This document shows, piece after piece, positions 587 through 63,467 of a stretch of 64,000 nt of DNA. How positions within the stretch are numbered: position 1 is the first letter of the stretch; the number at the start of each line of letters is the position of its first letter. Below the pieces are notes generated by a model, which saw only the letters and a list, made by a program, of their open reading frames with translations, did no database searches and was not told the origin of the DNA. The position numbers and the translations under genes were made by a program. This stretch comes from Eledone cirrhosa (lineage: Eukaryota): positions 334,924,001-334,988,000 of the forward strand of contig OZ024740.1 of the NCBI GenBank assembly GCA_964016885.1, given 5' to 3'.

Positions 587-2573
587 CGAAACATAAGTCA
601 ATTGCATGAACTCAAAATCCTTTATTTACTATACATATTTCGATGATAGCCATGCTATGAAATCATCAGGCAGTTAGTCAGTTCTTAGATATGCCAGCTC
701 TGTGTTTATAGTGTTGATAGTATCAGAGCCTTGGGACATATGAGCTTGTTAGGGATAATTTTATGTTGTCAGCAGGAATAGTCTTAATTCTCATTTGTCA
801 GTTTGTAGTTGCTAGTAGGGTTGGTATTTGACCTCAAAGAGGCAGGTGGTGTTGTAAAGTTCAAACCGTCAGTCAAGATGACAATAGTTCCATATATATA
901 TATATATATAGATATATATATATATATATATAGCGGGTTGTGTATGTATATTTGTGTGTGTAAATGCATGTATCATATAGTAATGGGTGTCATTAAATAT
1001 TTCATGAATGCACGCATTTCTTCATGTATTTTGGAACATACTATAAGGTGTAAGGTCAGTTCTAGATCTATATCAGGAGGTCCACCTAAGTAGTTATGGT
1101 AGTTAACGTGTATATATATAATAAAATAAATAAATGATTCTCATTTTCGAAAGCAAACTAAAACATAATGAAACAAATAATTATGTAAAAAGCAAAGCAA
1201 ACCAACTTAACTAGTAAATGCTTATACAATACAGATGATATGAATGATATTCGAATGAAATTTACTAAATAATTAAGTCGTTCCTCGTAATATTACAACA
1301 TTTTTAGCAATAGTACTCTTCAATAATATTTCGAAAACCCCAAATATTTTACATTGATAATTGCAGTCATCATGCATGCACGACTATGCCAGTAGAATTG
1401 TTCAAATATTAGTAGGAAATCACCCACGAGTTTGTAAATGTTTCGCAGCCTGTTCAGAATATTGATGGTTGTATATTTATCCTGTGTTGTTAATGCATAT
1501 TCAACCATACCACTAATATATGCAATTTATAACAATGGCTCTGGATAAATCATATATTTTTTATGATTGTGTTTAGAAATTATTTCGTTCCGTGCATTGC
1601 TTACGGTAGTTTACTATCGTTAATAGTGCTTTCCATGGATGGTAATACACGAGCTGATTTTAAGTCTATAAATGTTTTTTCCTGATTTATAATGAGAAGA
1701 CATTCTTCCAGTTCATGTCTTAATTCAATTGTTTTTGACATGTTATTTTCCCTTGCAATCAATCTCCCCAGATAGCATAACTACCAAACTAAAATTAGAT
1801 AAGTCCTGGGTCAAAAGGTGCTACTCGTTGTTTGGTGTACATCTAACACACTGTGTACATTGATATTTACCTTATGGATATACGAGCCATGTAGGGAACC
1901 GTTTTCCTACATCGATATACGAGCAGTTTATTTTTTGTTAATTGTGTAGTATTTGTACGGGTTATGAACACGAACATGAGCTCCTGTTGTCCCGCCAGTG
2001 AATGTTGAATGCAGAGAAATTGTTCTTGAGGCAGATTTTCAAGTTCTATTAACAGTCAGTGTTGTTTTTATTTTGTTTCTGTTCGGAATGTTTTTGGTTT
2101 TTGCTCTAAGAGTCGGTATAAAGGAATGTTATCTTATATTATTATGGAATATGCTATCACTAATATCGGTAACAAATAAATGATATGTATATAAACATCT
2201 AATTCAGCGTAGGACAATTTGTTTATATTGGCGGCCATATGGAGAAGCATTTATGTGATTTGCTTTCCATACGATTTACTCATCAAAATTTTAACCTCAC
2301 CGAATCTTTGATGTATCAAAGAGAATATGAAGCATTACATTGAGCATGCCACCAACAAATGTTATCGAGAGAATAATTGAACGAACGAGATAGTAAGAAA
2401 CGAAATTCTTCGAAATAATGGGGTATAAAATTTAAATGGAAAGATTATAGAAAAAAGTTAAATTAATATGCAAGCTGTACAAAAATATGTAATGTGCTGC
2501 TATTACCTATGGTTGCTCTAAATCATCTCTCAACTGTATTTCTTTAAGATAAATGTAAAGGCAAACATATGTA

Positions 2574-41030: not shown

Positions 41031-41118
41031 CATATATATGTATATACATATATGTGTATATACATATATATGTATATACATATATATACATATATGAAAA
41101 ATCAGTATGGATGCAGTA

Positions 41119-41154
<36 letters not shown>

Positions 41155-41173
41155 TACTGAATCCATTCTGATT

Positions 41174-41344
<171 letters not shown>

Positions 41345-41706
41345 AGGATACATAGATAGATAAAATGACAGATAGATAAATTATATATGTTTGTATATAT
41401 ATATATATATATAAAAACAAATAACGAAACGAAATTAAATTTCGTTTCGTTTGTAACTCACTTTTGTATGACTGACGCTTAAACAATTAAGTTAAAAATG
41501 TACATCTACATATGCATACTGAAATACTAGTATGCATATGAATACACACACGTATACATATGTAGATGTAACAAGTCTTTCACTGGTTACTTTACTGTGA
41601 GTAACCCAGCTATTCTGTATGTAAACACACAGACAAACCGGTTTTTAGAGTCATAATGGTTGTCGAGGAAACACCTTTCCTCTATTCTCCAGAAAGCCAG
41701 ATAAGG

Positions 41707-41751
41707 AATATTGAACTAGTTTCGTTGTTGTTACAACTCATCAGCAATATT
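41707..41751 (-). ncRNA. Minimal type I hammerhead ribozyme (copy 1)
   Basis: Minus strand: AATATTG CTGATGA GTTGT-aaca-ACAAC GAAA C-TA-G T T CAATATT, giving stem I 7 bp, intact core, stem II 5 bp, palindromic ACTAGT stem III and a GUU cleavage triplet. Confidence 0.85.
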
Positions 41752-42173
41752 TACCTATCTACCGGCCTTTCTGGAGAATCGTAAAAGCACATATCGTTAT
41801 ATGCTTTTTCTATGAAAATTAGTAGTGGGCAGACTAATTTGCATAGAGTGTGAGTACGCACCGGTTCAGCGGAGACGATAAAAACAAATAACGAAACGAA
41901 ATTAAATTTCGTTTCGTTTGTAACTCACTTTTGTATGACTGACGCTTAAACAATTAAGTTAAAAATGTACATCTACATATGCATACTGAAATACTAGTAT
42001 GCATATGAATACACACACGTATACATATGTAGATGTAACAAGTCTTTCACTGGTTACTTTACTGTGAGTAACCCAGCTATTCTGTATGTAAACACACAGA
42101 CAAACCGGTTTTTAGAGTCATATTGGTTTTCGAGGAAACACCTTTCCTCTATTCTCCAAAAAGCCAGACAAGG

Positions 42174-42218
42174 AATATTGAACTAGTTTCGTTGTTGTTA
42201 CAACTCATCAGCAATATT
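42174..42218 (-). ncRNA. Minimal type I hammerhead ribozyme (copy 2)
   Basis: Same 45-nt motif as copy 1, one repeat unit downstream. Confidence 0.85.
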
Positions 42219-42593
42219 TACCTATCTACCGGCCTTTCTGGAGAATCGTAAAAGCACATACAGAATAGCTGGGTTACTCACAGTAAAGTAACCAGTGAAA
42301 GACCTGTTACATCCACATATGTATACGTGTGTGTATTCATATGCATACTAGTATTTCAGTATGCATATGTAGATGTACATTTTTAACTTAATTGTTTAAG
42401 CGTCAGTCATACAAACGTGAGTTACAAACGAAACGAAATTTAATTTCGTTTCGTTATTTGATTTTATCGTCTCCGCTGAACCGGTGCGTACTCACACTCT
42501 ATGCAAATTAGTCTGCCCACTACTAATTTTCATAGAAAAAGCATATAACGATATGTGCTTTTACGATTCTCCAGAAAGGCCGGTAGATAGGTA

Positions 42594-42638
42594 AATATTG
42601 CTGATGAGTTGTAACAACAACGAAACTAGTTCAATATT
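42594..42638 (+). ncRNA. Minimal type I hammerhead ribozyme (copy 3, inverted unit)
   Basis: Plus strand aatattg ctgatga gttgt aaca acaac gaaa ctagt t caatatt read directly. Confidence 0.85.
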
Positions 42639-43787
42639 CCTTGTCTGGCTTTCTGGAGAATAGAGGAAAGGTGTTTCCTCGAAAACCAGTATGACTCTAA
42701 AAACCGGTTTGTCTGTGTGTTTACATACAGAATAGCTGGGTTACTCACAGTAAAGTAACCAGTGAAAGACTTGTTACATCTACATATGTATACGTGTGTT
42801 TATTCATATGCATACTAGTATTTCAGTATGCATATGTAGATTTACATTTTTAACTTAATTGTTTATATATATATATATATATATATATAAGTGTATGCGT
42901 GTGTGTATGTGTGTGTGGGTGGGTGTGTGGGTGTGTGGGTGTGGGTGTGTGGGTGTGCGTGTGCGTGCGTGTGTGTGGGTATGTGTGCGTGTGTGTATTT
43001 GTATCGCTGAGAGTGGAATCAAGCTCTTCGCTCTATATATGCATATTTTATTACTACGTGAGATACTAGTTCATTTGAAAAATGAAGAATTAAGTAAAAT
43101 TAATATGATGAATTCTTCTGACTAACAATAAAGTCTTTGTATTCAAAAGTAATTATATTAATTTCATTTACTTTAACTATAATTATTTCCTATTTTTTCA
43201 ATAGGATACAACTCTGATGAAAAATTCTCTGGTGGAGCTATGTAGAGTTAACGCTACAATATCTTCAACAGACCGAATAATATCAAGAAACCATCCAGAA
43301 ACACTAATGTTTGTAATAATATTATTATTTTTGTTATATTTTTAATATTTTGCTCTTAATAATAATACTTCGTTTCATAAACAGAGCTAGATTCAAAATG
43401 TTGAACTGAAATTCTCACGCCTCGGCAGATATAGTTCACAACATTTATACAACGTCGGTACCAGTCTGTCTGCAGGTTAAATAAATATTTATGGGTCATA
43501 CCATATATTGTAATAGGGATAAATTTTCTGACATATAGGTTAATATATTAGTGAATTATCTGGCGTTTCTTAACCACATATAATATCTTTAAAAATATAT
43601 ATATATATATATCTTTAGTATACATATTTCCTTTGACTTTCAATGTTATATGTAATTTACTTCCAATAATTTCATTTATGGTGTGTTTCAAGTAGGATTT
43701 ACTATGAAAACTCATACGCAGAACATTACTGTGACACCACTCTAATTTATGTGGAACAAAACATTTCCGGCTTTATATATACATACG

Positions 43788-44136: not shown

Positions 44137-45216
44137 GGGGGGGGGTATGTGTGTGTGTGTGGGTGGGTGTATATGTCTGTGCGTGTGTGTGCATGTATGG
44201 ACGTGTGTAAATTGGTCTTTATGACAACCTTAGGATAAATATATGCGTGTTGTCATGGCCAATTAGTCATAAATCATTTGCTGCAACTCTACTTTCTCCA
44301 TTTGCTTCTAGAATTCAGTATGTCACTTGAATAAATTTATGAAGTGTTTACTTATTCTGTAGAAATGTGACATTTTCTTGTTTTTCTTTCATTATTGGGC
44401 CCAAGGAATAAGGTTTTGGAATATTCTAATTTACTGGTTATTCTCCTCAACTTTTATATATTATATATATTTCAATATTAGTTCTTTCAGGAAAATTTAA
44501 TTGCGTTTATTACACCGAAAACGTGATGTGAATCGATAAAGTAAATTTAGTTTCTCCTATTTCCAAATATGCTAATATTTATCGAAATTAATTCTTAATA
44601 TGTATTGCAATCTTTCCTACGGTATGCAAGTTTCCATCATCTGCATCAAAACAGAATTAAATTCCTTTCAGTTACTGAATTCAAATTATCGTTTTAGAGA
44701 AATCATTTTATCTCTATAATAAACGAGGAAGAATTTTGACCGAAATAAAACTGGTTCAAAAATGAATATATGCGTATATTTAAATGAGAGTTATACATCT
44801 ACCTATTCCCACCTATACGTGTATATATGCATATATAAATGAATGCACACACACACACACACACACACAACACATATGTAGATAGATATATATATAAATA
44901 TATATATATACTGACGCACACACACATGTATATATATATGTACACTTAAATATGTACACTTTCTTCTAGTTTATTTTACACCTAATTCTGTTTAGTTGAC
45001 TGTATATCTGGTCGATTTATACATGGTGTAGAAATATTCGATAAATAATCCGTCGTAACCGCCGCGAAGGGGCTACTTTCGGTTATTTGTCGGAGATTTC
45101 TTCATAGGAGCCTTTATTCTTATAGCTTGGTCTAATTGATTTTTTATATGGTTAATTATACTAATTGGGAGAGGAAACTGTATATATTTTATCCGGCGAT
45201 TCTATAGACATGTTTA

Positions 45217-45272
<56 letters not shown>

Positions 45273-45337
45273 AGATGAAATCAAAAATGCAACTGGAGTC
45301 TTATTTTAAAAAAATATATATATATATTTATTTGGTT

Positions 45338-45375
45338 CCTTTACCGGTTTCGCAGTTCTTCTGCTTTTCAAAAGG
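45338..45375 (-). ncRNA. Variant minimal hammerhead ribozyme with U3-A8 core (mirror copy)
   Basis: Exact reverse complement of 45421-45458 in the other arm of a fold-back element. Confidence 0.6.
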
Positions 45376-45420
45376 TGAGTTGAGATGGAGAAAAAACCAC
45401 AGACCCTCCATCTCAACTCA

Positions 45421-46102: not shown

Positions 46103-46219
46103 TTTAATATAGATGAGATTCTACAGGACTAGAACTGTTTCATTCTTTAGAAATCATCAGGAATCTGATGATTTCTAAAGAATGAAGTTTTAATCCTGTT
46201 GAATCTCATCTATATTAAA
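46103..46219. repeat. Fold-back inverted repeat centred on a hammerhead-like core
   Basis: tttaatatagatgagattc...aaatcatcag-gaat-ctgatgattt...gaatctcatctatattaaa. Left arm on the minus strand reads CTGATGA...GAAAC...GTC. Confidence 0.8.
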
Positions 46220-48879: not shown

Positions 48880-49640
48880 ATTCCACATAATGGATGCCTG
48901 CGGAGACCTATTTGTAAATCTTGATTTTGCCCGTCCGAGACTCAAAATGGCCTACGTACAGCTCGAGATATCTCGGATAGGCAACAGATAAAGAGGGATT
49001 AGGGGTAAATGTACAAGCCCGGTAGAATTCCAGCGGCATAGGCTATTCATTTTCTCTCGCCAAACATAAAGATTCCGAGGCACCAGCAAAGAAAACAATA
49101 AAGAATGAGACACACCCAAGGGACATCAGATACTATCTAAAGCCTCTACACTTCCATAAGAGAATGACTGTTACCATCCAACAAGCTATCCATACATAGG
49201 AAGCATCTGAACATACGTTTGGTGCTCTTCAGACCATTCATGAGGAGACTACCCTCCAAACGTCGATCTGCATACAACAGCACATGCGCATTTCCTAACT
49301 CTCCCATCAATAACCCGGAAATGTACATAATAACGTATGTCGTTTACAGGATCACATGCAGAGGCTATGCTTCCTCATACCTTGGCAGTACTGTCTGCAT
49401 GTTGCAAATCCGGAAAAAGAACATATAACCGTAGATAAATGACACAACCAAGATCACAATACAAGCGACGGAAAGAAATGTGGGTAATCTACGAATTACG
49501 GAACGGCAAATAGACAATTGAGCGGATTATTGCGCATGTGCAATCCAACAGTCAACTACACTCACACTATAGGGAAGATTCATGAGAACAGAAAGCCTAG
49601 TGGTTTCTAAATGTATTTCAAGAAACGATTTTTACCTTAA
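48880..49640 (+). mobile_element. Degenerate Penelope-like element (GIY-YIG endonuclease remnant)
   Basis: ORF 49219-49428 ends YVVYRITCRGYASSYLGSTVCMLQIRKK, resembling the PLE VVY-ITC--C---YIG-T---L--R motif. Boundaries approximate. Confidence 0.55.
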
Positions 49641-50021
49641 AATATCATGATAAAAGCTCTTTTTTTTTTTTTGTCATCCCTCTATATTTATATCCACATT
49701 GTAATGGAATTCCTAGCATCTTATCCTCATTCATTAATATATAAATATATATATATATAGTTAAAAGAATAGAGGTGTAACATACAAGTTATTATATATT
49801 GGTAAACGGAATAGAAAATGCTGACAAATTGTTCACAGTTGAAAAATAGTTTAATTAGGAATAAAAGAGTATTAGTAATTGTGTGGGTTAGTATTCAGTT
49901 GTGGTTTTAAGTTTTTAAGTTTTTACCGGTTGCGCATTTCTAAATGCTTTTCAAAAATAATTTTGAGATAGAGTGTCCGTGTTGTTTTCTCTGATCTGAT
50001 TAGTTTTGGGAATTCTACCTG

Positions 50022-50266
50022 TTTTTGTGTTAAAAAAGTGTCTCCAGCGCTACTTTGGTGTTGCAAAAATTCTTGTGGTCAAAACAATTTATGATTGGTC
50101 GGTAGAGGTCATGTGAATGTAAAAAATTGATTTTGCGCCAAGAGTGTTTTTATGTTTAAAAAGTGGCTCCAGCGCTACTTGGTGTTGCAAAAATTCTTGT
50201 GGTCAAAACAATTTTGATTGGTCAGTAGAGGTCATGTGAATGTAAAAAATTGATTTCGCGCCAAGA
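50022..50266. repeat. Two-copy tandem repeat, ~125-bp unit
   Basis: ctccagcgctact..ggtgttgcaaaaattcttgtggtcaaaacaattt..gattggtc.gtagaggtcatgtgaatgtaaaaaattgattt.gcgccaaga occurs twice. Confidence 0.9.
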
Positions 50267-51659: not shown

Positions 51660-51846
51660 TGTTTCTACTTTTGGCACAAGGCCAGCAATTAGCCAGTGTA
51701 TTACTGGTACTTTATTTTATCGACCCCGTAAGGATGAAAGGCAAAGTTAACCTCGGCGGGATTTGAACTCAGACCATAAAGGGCCGTAACTCTTTGCTGC
51801 AAAGCATGGCATCCGACTCTCTACCGATACTGCCAATCCAACGCCC
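51414..51846 (-). mobile_element. Two tandem SINE copies (51414-51602, 51659-51846) separated by (TAA)n
   Basis: Family consensus twice. Confidence 0.85.
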
Positions 51847-51888
<42 letters not shown>

Positions 51889-52565
51889 TCTACAAGGAGG
51901 AGGCTAGCCCACTGTGCAGGATCTGTGGAGAGAGAGAGGAGACTGTGGCTCACATTGTGTCCGAGTGTAAACACCTAGCCCAGACCCACTATAAGGGCTG
52001 GAGACACGATGTGATGGGCAGGGTGATCCACTGGCACCTGTGCAAAGTAAACAATCTACCACATTCTGAGAAATGGTATGAGCATAGGCCAGAGGCGGTG
52101 ATGGAGAACAGTCAGGTGAAGGTGCTGTGGGATTTTAGGATACAGACGGACAAAAAACTGGAACACAATAGACCTGACCTGGTGGTTGTGGACAAAGAAA
52201 GAAAAAAGATCGTGCCTGATTGTGGATGTGACCTGCCCGTTCGACACGAGAGTGCAAGAGAAGGAGAGGGAGAAAATTAACCGATACCAGGACCTAAAGT
52301 GGGAGGTGAAAAGGATTTGGAACTTCCATGAAGTCAAAGTGATCCCGATTGTCATAGGCGCACTGGGGACTATCTCCAAAGGTTTCCAGGGATGGTTAAA
52401 GAAAATCGGCCCCTTCACGCTTTTTGGAACGCTTCAAAAGGCATGCTTGCTTGGAACAGCAAGAACCCTCCGATACGTCCTGAATATCTGAGGCTGCAGG
52501 TAGTGGCTTGATATTCAATCCAACGGACTTTGCAGTTAACCAACATCAATGACTGAGATTCAAGG
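51889..52565 (+). mobile_element. 5'-truncated non-LTR retrotransposon with restriction-like endonuclease (Dong/R4-like) in (TAA)n
   Basis: Overlapping ORFs give HIVSEC..RHD..IHWHLC..LWDFRIQTD..NRPDLVVVDK / CLIVDVTCPFD..EKINRYQDL..VIPIVIGALG, i.e. CCHC finger plus PD-(D/E)xK RLE, with a frameshift near 52205. (TAA)n on both sides. Confidence 0.85.
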
Positions 52566-62256: not shown

Positions 62257-62830
<574 letters not shown>

Positions 62831-63467
62831 ATATATATATGGGGGTGGCGTATTATCGTATTTTTATTACATATATATATATGTTTTACCGGCGTGTTGA
62901 GTCTAATATAGATTGTTGACTAACAATTTCTAAGAGTGAACATTTGATCCTTGTACCACTCAAATTTGAACCTCTAATTGGAAATAAATATCATTCAGAT
63001 TTTTTATACGAACATAACAATTCAGTTTTCGGTAATCAAATGACTAATGTTATAATCAGACTCTTAATAAAGTCTTATATAGATGCATAAAAGTAATTGG
63101 CATTCTATATTTCGTGAATATATAATGATTTATTTGCCCATGTGTAAGACCTCCATATTGTCAAACTATACACCATCTAGTCAGCATATTTCTGTTATTT
63201 AGCAGGAATCCTAAACTTAATCATATCAAAAGCTGTGAAGTTTCGTTGTCAATATGAACGCAATAATTATGTTGCTCATTGATTTATTGCAACACAGCCA
63301 CGATCAGCAGTTATATAATATTCATATAAATGAGCCAGAACAATGTTATTTATTGCTTTCCCATGACATACAACAATCCACTGTAGGATTAATACTAACT
63401 AGAATACTTCCATAAGAAATACGAAATGACAATTCATTCTGAACAATCGTTATGGTGATGCCCAAAC

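What the first reader, a model, noticed from the sequence alone, without database searches (positions are those of the whole stretch)
41411..42865. ~467-nt hammerhead-ribozyme repeat (retrozyme-like element) with four intact ribozymes in one window
Seen: a non-coding 467-bp unit containing a perfect minimal type I hammerhead (stem I AATATTG/CAATATT, CTGATGA, stem II GTTGT/ACAAC, GAAAC-TA-GTT), identical at 41707, 42174, 42594 and 62611. Known: minimal hammerheads with palindromic stem III occur in Penelope-like element repeats and cleave as dimers, and tandem hammerhead repeats (non-LTR retrozymes) in animals yield small circular RNAs. Inference: this is a young, non-autonomous retrozyme or pLTR family, possibly mobilised by Penelope enzymes whose remnants are present in the window. 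I cannot tell whether it has been described in this taxon.
Basis: partly seen in the sequence, partly recalled or inferred. Interest (0 to 1): 0.9.

Follow-up and report, generated by a model that had tools for sequence, protein, structure and literature searches.

The report
Hammerhead retrozyme inserted Penelope-style, thousands-fold
A 467-base non-coding repeat carrying a hammerhead ribozyme motif has been copied thousands of times into TA microsatellites of this animal genome as head-to-head insertions with two fixed end points, which likely records a small RNA circle being reverse-transcribed from two sites at once by a Penelope-like retrotransposon enzyme.

Summary
Confirmed: four identical 45-nt type I hammerheads in a 467-nt non-coding unit. 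It is a non-LTR retrozyme: 4,843 exact copies and 40,258 related cores genome-wide (11, 73), with compensatory stem changes (57). The locus is one head-to-head insertion in (TA)n. The family shows how it likely moves. Arms end at two fixed sites 68 nt apart. In 102 insertions not picked for pairing, 63 had one arm at each site, 1 had B+B, none A+A (76). Neptune-type Penelope-like elements here follow the same rule (7 of 7 two-tailed copies; 75). Both arms share a haplotype in 73 of 76 insertions, against 10% at random (84). Arms reach 30 units. Inherited variants lean A>G on the ribozyme strand (17:5), but strictly private ones did not replicate (5:3). Best reading: an RNA circle primed at two internal sites by both strands of a cut (TA)n and copied round, by a Penelope-like enzyme in trans. 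Not shown: cleavage, expression, circles, which enzyme. Known kind; the mechanistic footprint was not found in print in 8 searches. The scan noted a similar ribozyme-less repeat in another genome.

The parts
41412..42260 (-). Left arm, 1.8 units; 3' end at fixed site A (41412) running into (TA)n; 5' end truncated at unit position 86
42256..42865 (+). Right arm, 1.3 units; 5' end at unit position 257; 3' end at fixed site B (42865) running into (TA)n
42256..42260 (.). 5-nt overlap joining the two arms 5' to 5' (microhomology)
   Evidence: 47 of 87 such junctions overlap by 1-9 nt
41707..41751 (-). Type I hammerhead; predicted cut 3' of 41714 (GUU)
42174..42218 (-). Type I hammerhead; predicted cut 3' of 42181; dimer partner of the 41707 copy in a tandem transcript (predicted)
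42594..42638 (+). Type I hammerhead; predicted cut 3' of 42631
41412..41479 (-). 68-nt 'tail' between end sites B and A, holding a 13-bp hairpin
42417..42495 (+). Predicted helix (42417-42422 with 42490-42495) that encloses site A (42466); kept in three retrozyme variants
   Evidence: motifs chosen by eye
42500..42511 (+). 12-nt motif holding an octamer-like ATGCAAAT, shared with the sister family; also at 41834-41845 (-); possible promoter element, untested
   Evidence: 'octamer' label recalled
41032..41411 (.). Microsatellite-rich left flank ending in (TA)n, the target
42864..42889 (.). (TA)13 right flank, the target
62386..62831 (-). Second, one-armed insertion (446 nt), 3' end at site B into (TA)42; hammerhead at 62611-62655

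Best explanation
This is a non-coding hammerhead repeat family (a non-LTR retrozyme) inserted thousands of times into (TA)n, mostly as two arms joined head to head that end at two fixed sites, and it is likely copied from a small RNA circle by a Penelope-like retrotransposon enzyme acting in trans. Steps: (1) a tandem copy is transcribed (inferred; promoter unknown). (2) Neighbouring hammerheads likely pair through the palindromic stem III and cut 3' of GUU, giving a 467-nt monomer whose ends sit together in a long stem (fold predicted; cleavage untested). (3) A host ligase would close the circle (by analogy with mussel and axolotl retrozymes). (4) A (TA)n-targeting Penelope-like protein, Neptune- or Hydra-type, would nick both target strands; one 3' end primes at site A and the other at site B, 68 nt upstream, probably on the same RNA (end rule and shared haplotype shown; priming inferred). 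(5) Each cDNA runs from a fraction of a turn to many turns, and the two are joined by microhomology (lengths and junctions shown). (6) Older arrays are further reshaped by unequal exchange.
For: Copy number: 4,843 exact hammerheads, control 0; 40,258 related cores, control 3; 2,391 exact site-A/TA junctions. Ribozyme under selection: core and stem III invariant and 6 of 17 pairs with two-sided changes in 19 variants; cleavage triplet GUU, GUC or GUA. End rule: 63 A+B, 1 B+B, 0 A+A among 102 insertions not picked for pairing; 24 of 24 when anchored on an A end. Sister family 4 of 4; Neptune-type family E 7 of 7 two-tailed copies among 21 loci. Same template: 73 of 76 two-armed insertions differ at 0-1 diagnostic sites against 10% for random partners; arm-to-arm divergence median 0.23% against 3.7% between insertions. 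Not a fold-back copy: in 7 of 76 each arm holds sequence the other lacks, and the two 5' ends are unrelated (7 within 15 nt, 5.0 expected). Read-through of the cut site: 101 of 163 arms exceed one unit; 5' ends are not enriched there (7 of 206, 4.9 expected). One insertion has 20 unit pieces with no difference (L031). Inherited rare variants: A>G 17, T>C 5 on the ribozyme strand, against 35 and 47 for unit-specific ones. PMC11167929 shows in vitro that a Penelope-like protein cuts both strands and starts at two internal sites that define the tail.
Against: No RNA data: cleavage, expression and circles are untested here. Long arrays alone do not prove rolling: variants repeat with period 2-3 in L032, L132, L139, L003 and L093, and mirror across arms in L092, so later unequal exchange, gene conversion or a multimeric template also act; assembly polishing may flatten arrays. 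A linear uncut multimer from a uniform source array explains most single observations, and PMC11167929 found uncut RNA to be the main substrate in vitro. Three of 76 insertions have arms of different haplotype. The strictly private A>G excess (10:0) fell to 4:0 with more loci and was 5:3 in the new set. No partner was found by sequence: tail alignments to seven Penelope-like 3' regions were at shuffle level apart from one AC-rich match for the sister family. The inactive fold is 5.4 kcal/mol more stable than the double hammerhead.
Confidence: 0.68

Rival explanations
1. Same family and same enzyme class, but the template is a linear, uncut multimeric transcript of a tandem copy, not a circle; two-site priming still gives the head-to-head form, and long arrays grow later by unequal exchange.
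For: Period-2/3 and mirrored variants inside arrays; uncut RNA was the main substrate for the anole element (PMC11167929); the bioRxiv preprint 10.64898/2026.07.22.740005 proposes local tandem expansion; hammerhead predicted to sit in an inactive fold.
Against: Whole-array fixation of rare variants on both arms, 19 of 27 private ones, needs a one-unit bottleneck; strand-biased A>G among inherited variants; the hammerhead is kept functional-looking across families, which a purely linear cycle would not need.
Confidence: 0.22
2. The unit is the solo terminal repeat (pLTR) of an ORF-bearing Penelope-like element not sampled here, and the copies are its 5'-truncated offspring.
For: Ends, target and inversion are those of Penelope-like elements; only 70 ORF-anchored loci of more than 10,000 GIY-YIG candidates were read; Hydra-type elements with hammerheads exist here.
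Against: In 122 stretches no arm continues upstream into an ORF in the same orientation; arms upstream of a unit are more units. Neptune-type terminal repeats read here carry no such hammerhead.
Confidence: 0.07
3. A DNA-level repeat (satellite or palindromic element) that spreads without RNA; the ribozyme is a passenger.
For: Tandem and inverted form; later array expansion.
Against: Fixed 3' ends with scattered 5' ends on one strand only; stem covariation; strand-biased variants; no terminal inverted repeat common to both ends.
Confidence: 0.03

Closest known systems
Non-LTR retrozymes of animals (PMC7229834; bioRxiv 10.64898/2026.07.22.740005)
   Same: Short non-coding tandem unit, low GC, one type I hammerhead per unit, thousands of copies, short palindromic stem III suggesting dimer cleavage; the sister family has a U-U at the base of stem II like the axolotl Amex2 motif.
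   Different: 467 nt is above the 170-400 nt of the first paper, inside the 51-972 nt of the second. In the parts read neither paper describes fixed end sites, head-to-head arms or (TA)n targeting; reverse transcription of the circle is proposed there, not shown. Circular RNA was shown there and is not shown here.
EN+ Penelope-like elements (Neptune/Nematis and Hydra types; PMC8557442, PMC3846280, PMC11167929)
   Same: (TA)n target, inverted 5' copy, two end sites with a tail present at one end only, microhomology joins.
   Different: No ORF; arms are many repeats of one 467-nt unit; tail is 68 nt rather than 30-40. PMC3846280 explains head-to-head copies by self-priming on an antisense template; the unrelated 5' ends and mutually non-contained arms here argue for two separate primings instead.
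Minimal hammerheads of pLTRs (PMC4209133)
   Same: Type I topology, likely dimer action.
   Different: This motif has a 2-bp helix III with a 2-nt loop and an invariant stem I bulge, so it is the canonical form.
LINE-1 twin priming (recalled, no call)
   Same: Two target strands prime two cDNAs that join by microhomology, giving an inversion.
   Different: Here both starts are at fixed internal sites and the arms overlap and repeat, rather than splitting one linear RNA in two.

Membership tests
Type I hammerhead ribozyme (canonical) | Catalytic core CUGANGA, GAAA, NUH at a three-way junction | tested here: met
   Invariant in 19 variants, H = U, C or A; Rfam HH9 E 1-3e-6 but under gathering score
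Type I hammerhead ribozyme (canonical) | Stems I-III with compensatory change | tested here: met
   91% of cells paired, 6 of 17 pairs with two-sided change, slid controls 33-49%; sequences are related, so counts are not independent events
Type I hammerhead ribozyme (canonical) | Loop 1-loop 2 tertiary contact | tested here: inconclusive
   Stem I bulge GGUA and loop 2 AA-A invariant; no structural test
Type I hammerhead ribozyme (canonical) | Self-cleavage | not testable with these tools
   Only folding energies
Minimal pLTR hammerhead (PMC4209133) | No helix III | tested here: not met
   2-bp helix III with 2-nt palindromic loop in 19 of 19
Non-LTR retrozyme | Tandem units of a few hundred bp with a type I hammerhead in each | tested here: met
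   467-nt period, arms up to 30.7 units
Non-LTR retrozyme | Non-coding, GC below 50% | tested here: met
   GC 35.5%, longest ATG frame 19 and 42 aa
Non-LTR retrozyme | Dispersed, mobile copies | tested here: met
   2,391 exact site-A junctions on many contigs
Non-LTR retrozyme | No LTR, PBS or PPT | not tested
   No LTR arrangement is visible in the loci; PBS and PPT were not searched
Non-LTR retrozyme | Expressed as linear and circular monomer RNA | not testable with these tools
   No RNA holder listed; only contigs could be laid
pLTR of an autonomous Penelope-like element | Unit flanks an RT plus GIY-YIG ORF in the same orientation | tested here: not met
   122 stretches, 12 with a Penelope-like protein hit; direct joins are head-to-head or at an arm's 3' side; sample only
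Penelope-type insertion | Two internal end sites, tail at one end, inverted 5' arm, (TA)n target | tested here: met
   same in family E
Neptune/Nematis clade (candidate enzymes) | CX2-5CxxC linker between RT and C-terminal GIY-YIG | tested here: met
   Present in 5 of 8 ORFs tested; no tree was built, so Neptune versus Nematis is not settled

The most novel reading that the evidence does not exclude
The genome holds a direct fossil record of the retrozyme cycle: one A-to-I-edited RNA circle is primed by both strands of a cut (TA)n at two fixed sites, two reverse transcriptases chase each other round it, and the edits are written into every unit of both arms. The same twin-site priming would explain the long-noted 'tail at one end only' and head-to-head copies of all Penelope-like elements, and the retrozyme would parasitise ribozyme-less Neptune-type elements by mimicking an RNA structure rather than being their terminal repeat.
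Probability: 0.35. Interest if true: 0.78.

Novelty: new member of a known kind. Interest (0 to 1): 0.58.

Why it matters
How animal retrozymes get into the genome, and by which enzyme, is stated as open in both retrozyme papers read, and the origin of the inverted and tailed structure of Penelope-like insertions is called unresolved in PMC8557442. This family is young, abundant and uniform enough to give hard rules: two start sites to the base, one per arm, both arms from one haplotype. That makes the mechanism directly testable with an existing in vitro assay format, and gives a natural 467-nt cargo for a (TA)n-targeting enzyme. About 40,000 related hammerhead cores also make it one of the larger ribozyme loads among those quoted in the papers read (mussel about 5,000, axolotl about 126,000).

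Tried and rejected
RNA evidence: no RNA holder listed; four runs of unrecorded kind were laid as contigs only and say nothing on expression or circles; one holds a 496-nt contig over one unit, which a tandem DNA array gives equally. Partner by sequence: blastn of the unit against 50 GIY-YIG-anchored loci hit only retrozyme copies and simple repeats; local alignment of tails to seven 3' regions was at shuffle level except one AC-rich match; relaxed hammerhead scans found none in Neptune-type terminal repeats. A shared helix round site A is predicted for three retrozyme variants and Neptune families B and E but not A; motifs were picked by eye, so it is a lead. Partner by chimeras: arms are joined to Neptune family A twice (L171, L185), to Hydra-type elements twice (L013, L191), to the sister retrozyme once (L094) and to a family E remnant once (L038); these fit co-insertion or a later insertion into the flanking (TA)n with deletion, and name no single enzyme. 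RNA editing as a firm claim: rejected as not replicated for strictly private variants; four carrier thresholds were tried (p 0.052, 0.019, 0.0045, 0.0008), and selection for G-U-tolerant changes is an equal reading. Linear monomer template: rejected, 5' ends not enriched at the cut site. Fold-back origin of the second arm: disfavoured. Local hop between the two window copies: rejected, haplotypes differ. Rfam microRNA hits in the window are microsatellite noise. A profile search for further Penelope-like families could not be run; a single-protein search returned only family E and its near relatives. Target-site duplications cannot be read in (TA)n.

Full report
Observation. The four 45-nt hammerheads are identical and lie at 41707-41751 (-), 42174-42218 (-), 42594-42638 (+) and 62611-62655 (-). 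The period is 467 nt. Rfam's HH9 model hits all four at E 1-3e-6, under its gathering score. The unit is 35.5% GC and non-coding, and folds far better than shuffles as a circle (z -14.4 ribozyme strand, -10.8 opposite). I number the unit on the ribozyme strand, position 1 = window 41878. The locus is two arms joined 5' to 5' with a 5-nt overlap: the left arm ends at position 467 (site A), the right at 399 (site B), both running into (TA)n. The 62.4-62.8 kb copy is a separate one-armed insertion ending at B.

Host. The genome is 3.0 Gb. That it is an octopus-like cephalopod is my inference from recalled repeat features; it was not tested.

Family size. 4,843 exact hammerheads (control 0), 40,258 related cores (control 3), 2,391 exact site-A/TA junctions and 757 site-B/TA junctions on the forward strand (the reverse count is inflated by repeated matches). 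There are subfamilies down to 86% identity and a sister family of about 470-510 nt. Across 19 hammerhead variants the core and stem III are invariant, 6 of 17 pairs change on both sides, and the cleavage triplet stays NUH. The motif is canonical, not minimal. In the natural tandem dimer the double-hammerhead fold is 9.8 kcal/mol better than two single hammerheads but 5.4 worse than the inactive minimum.

End rule. I classified 125 insertions (one duplicate dropped). Twenty-three were fetched because an A and a B end lay close and are left out of the test. Of the other 102: 63 A+B, 1 B+B, 0 A+A, 25 with an outward 5' end, 11 with one end elsewhere, 2 cut off. In the set anchored on an A end, the other fixed end was B in 24 of 24; with A making about 61% of ends, independence gives about 1e-10 (hand calculation). 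The sister family gave 4 of 4 and the Neptune-type family E 7 of 7 two-tailed copies among 21 loci picked for long ORFs. 5' ends are spread over the unit and not enriched at the cut site (7 of 206, 4.9 expected); 47 of 87 central junctions overlap by 1-9 nt; 101 of 163 arms exceed one unit, the longest 30.7.

One template for both arms. At 61 diagnostic sites, 66 of 76 two-armed insertions show no arm-to-arm difference, 7 show one and 3 show two or more; random partners pass the same bar 10% of the time. In 7 of 76 each arm holds sequence the other lacks, and the two 5' positions are unrelated, so the second arm is not generally a fold-back copy of the first. A shared haplotype could also come from a small pool of source loci in one cell; the data do not separate this from a single molecule.

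Circle or linear multimer. For a circle: L031 has 20 unit pieces without a difference, and 19 of 27 private variants fixed in an insertion are seen on both arms. Variants inherited through the template lean A>G on the ribozyme strand (17 against 5 T>C at up to four carriers; unit-specific changes 35 against 47); 14 of 17 such sites are predicted paired (baseline 87 of 131) and none has a 5' G (baseline 20 of 131), as A-to-I editing would give (preference recalled). Against: the first-set result for strictly private variants (10:0, three loci dropped for misalignment or divergence) fell to 4:0 once more loci were known, and the new set gave 5:3 (five loci dropped for misalignment or duplication); selection for G-U pairs is an equal reading. 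Several older arrays repeat variants with period 2-3 and L092 mirrors them across arms, so later exchange also shapes arrays. I put the circle at about 3 to 1 over a linear multimer.

Enzyme. The genome has 10,597 GIY-YIG candidates. I read 70 ORF-anchored loci. Five of eight ORFs tested carry the CX2-5CxxC linker of Neptune/Nematis elements, one with a 1,096-codon open frame; family E copies are 93-100% identical over the probe. They insert in (TA)n with the same two-site, two-arm form but lack this hammerhead and show no significant sequence match to the unit. Hydra-type elements (CxCX5C linker, as in PMC8557442 section 11) also occur. In 122 stretches no arm sits downstream of an ORF as its terminal repeat. 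Six direct joins to other elements exist (Neptune A twice, Hydra-type twice, sister retrozyme, family E remnant). The three whose two ends could be classed are A+B, A+A and B+B, which would fit the rule holding only within one RNA, but later insertion into the flanking (TA)n with deletion explains them as well. The partner is therefore a (TA)n-targeting Penelope-like enzyme of unsettled family.

Comparison with print. PMC7229834 (read: abstract, Results parts 1-2 of 3, Discussion) defines non-LTR retrozymes, shows circles in coral, mussel and axolotl, and only proposes reverse transcription of the circle. bioRxiv 10.64898/2026.07.22.740005 (read: parts 1-3 of 5; supplements not available) links them to Penelope-like terminal repeats in vertebrates, proposes local tandem expansion and found cleavage in 1 of 9 dimers. 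PMC11167929 (parts 1-2 of 4) shows two-strand cutting and two internal start sites in vitro. PMC8557442 (passages and section 11) and PMC3846280 (passages) describe the tail at one end and the inverted copy, so the end rule is known descriptively for autonomous elements; the latter explains inversion by antisense self-priming. PMC4209133 (passages) defines canonical and minimal motifs and suggests circular templates. PMC13282606 (passages; supplement not read) annotates octopus repeats without the word ribozyme in its main text; PMC6962438 (passages) counts 235 hammerheads in giant squid. Eight searches found no description of this family or of fixed ends in retrozymes; subscription papers, Repbase and Dfam were not searchable, so an existing repeat-library entry is possible. 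The scan's notes held nothing for this genome or sequence and one similar ribozyme-less repeat elsewhere.

Verdict. A real, young, very abundant non-LTR retrozyme family: a new member of a known kind. Its value lies in the insertion anatomy, which ties it to Penelope-type two-site priming and makes an open mechanism testable. Interest 0.58.

Noticed in passing
window 638-669 (-): A hammerhead-like core of another family, resembling one in L201 at 1683; several further hammerhead families appear in fetched loci (L101, L107, L205, L215, L228).
   Followed up: partly
window 49207-49512 (+): GIY-YIG remnant, 35% identical to a Penelope-type ORF of this genome.
   Followed up: partly
window 45203-45390 and 49728-50266: 3' pieces of Neptune-type families B and A; the first explains the strong MIR4208 Rfam hit as a hairpin.
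   Followed up: partly
window 51780-52491 (+): Frameshifted C-terminal part of a non-LTR element with a zinc finger and restriction-like endonuclease motif, beside (AAT)n; R4/Dong-like by recall; 98.6% to a copy in L070.
   Followed up: no
L111:7600-9901; L131: Sister retrozyme family whose unit contains an internal (TA)n, so it carries its own target site.
   Followed up: partly
window 42500-42511; genome-wide: A 12-mer with an octamer-like motif has 30,664 copies against 186 for the control and is kept between the two families; three clustered A>G changes destroy it in the 20-unit array L031.
   Followed up: partly
L198:879-934: A 56-nt GC-rich foreign piece sits between the two arms, possibly captured from another RNA.
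   Followed up: no
family-wide: Unit-specific changes show G>A 83 against C>T 50 on the ribozyme strand, not explained by CpG alone; could reflect deamination of single-stranded cDNA.
   Followed up: partly
L171/L222, L185/L232, L013/L229, L191/L228, L094: Chimeric joins of retrozyme arms to Neptune-type, Hydra-type or sister-family sequence inside one (TA)n site.
   Followed up: yes
window 46138-46160; L119: Small palindromic element inserted in (TA)n; its core-pattern match is not a hammerhead of this family.
   Followed up: no
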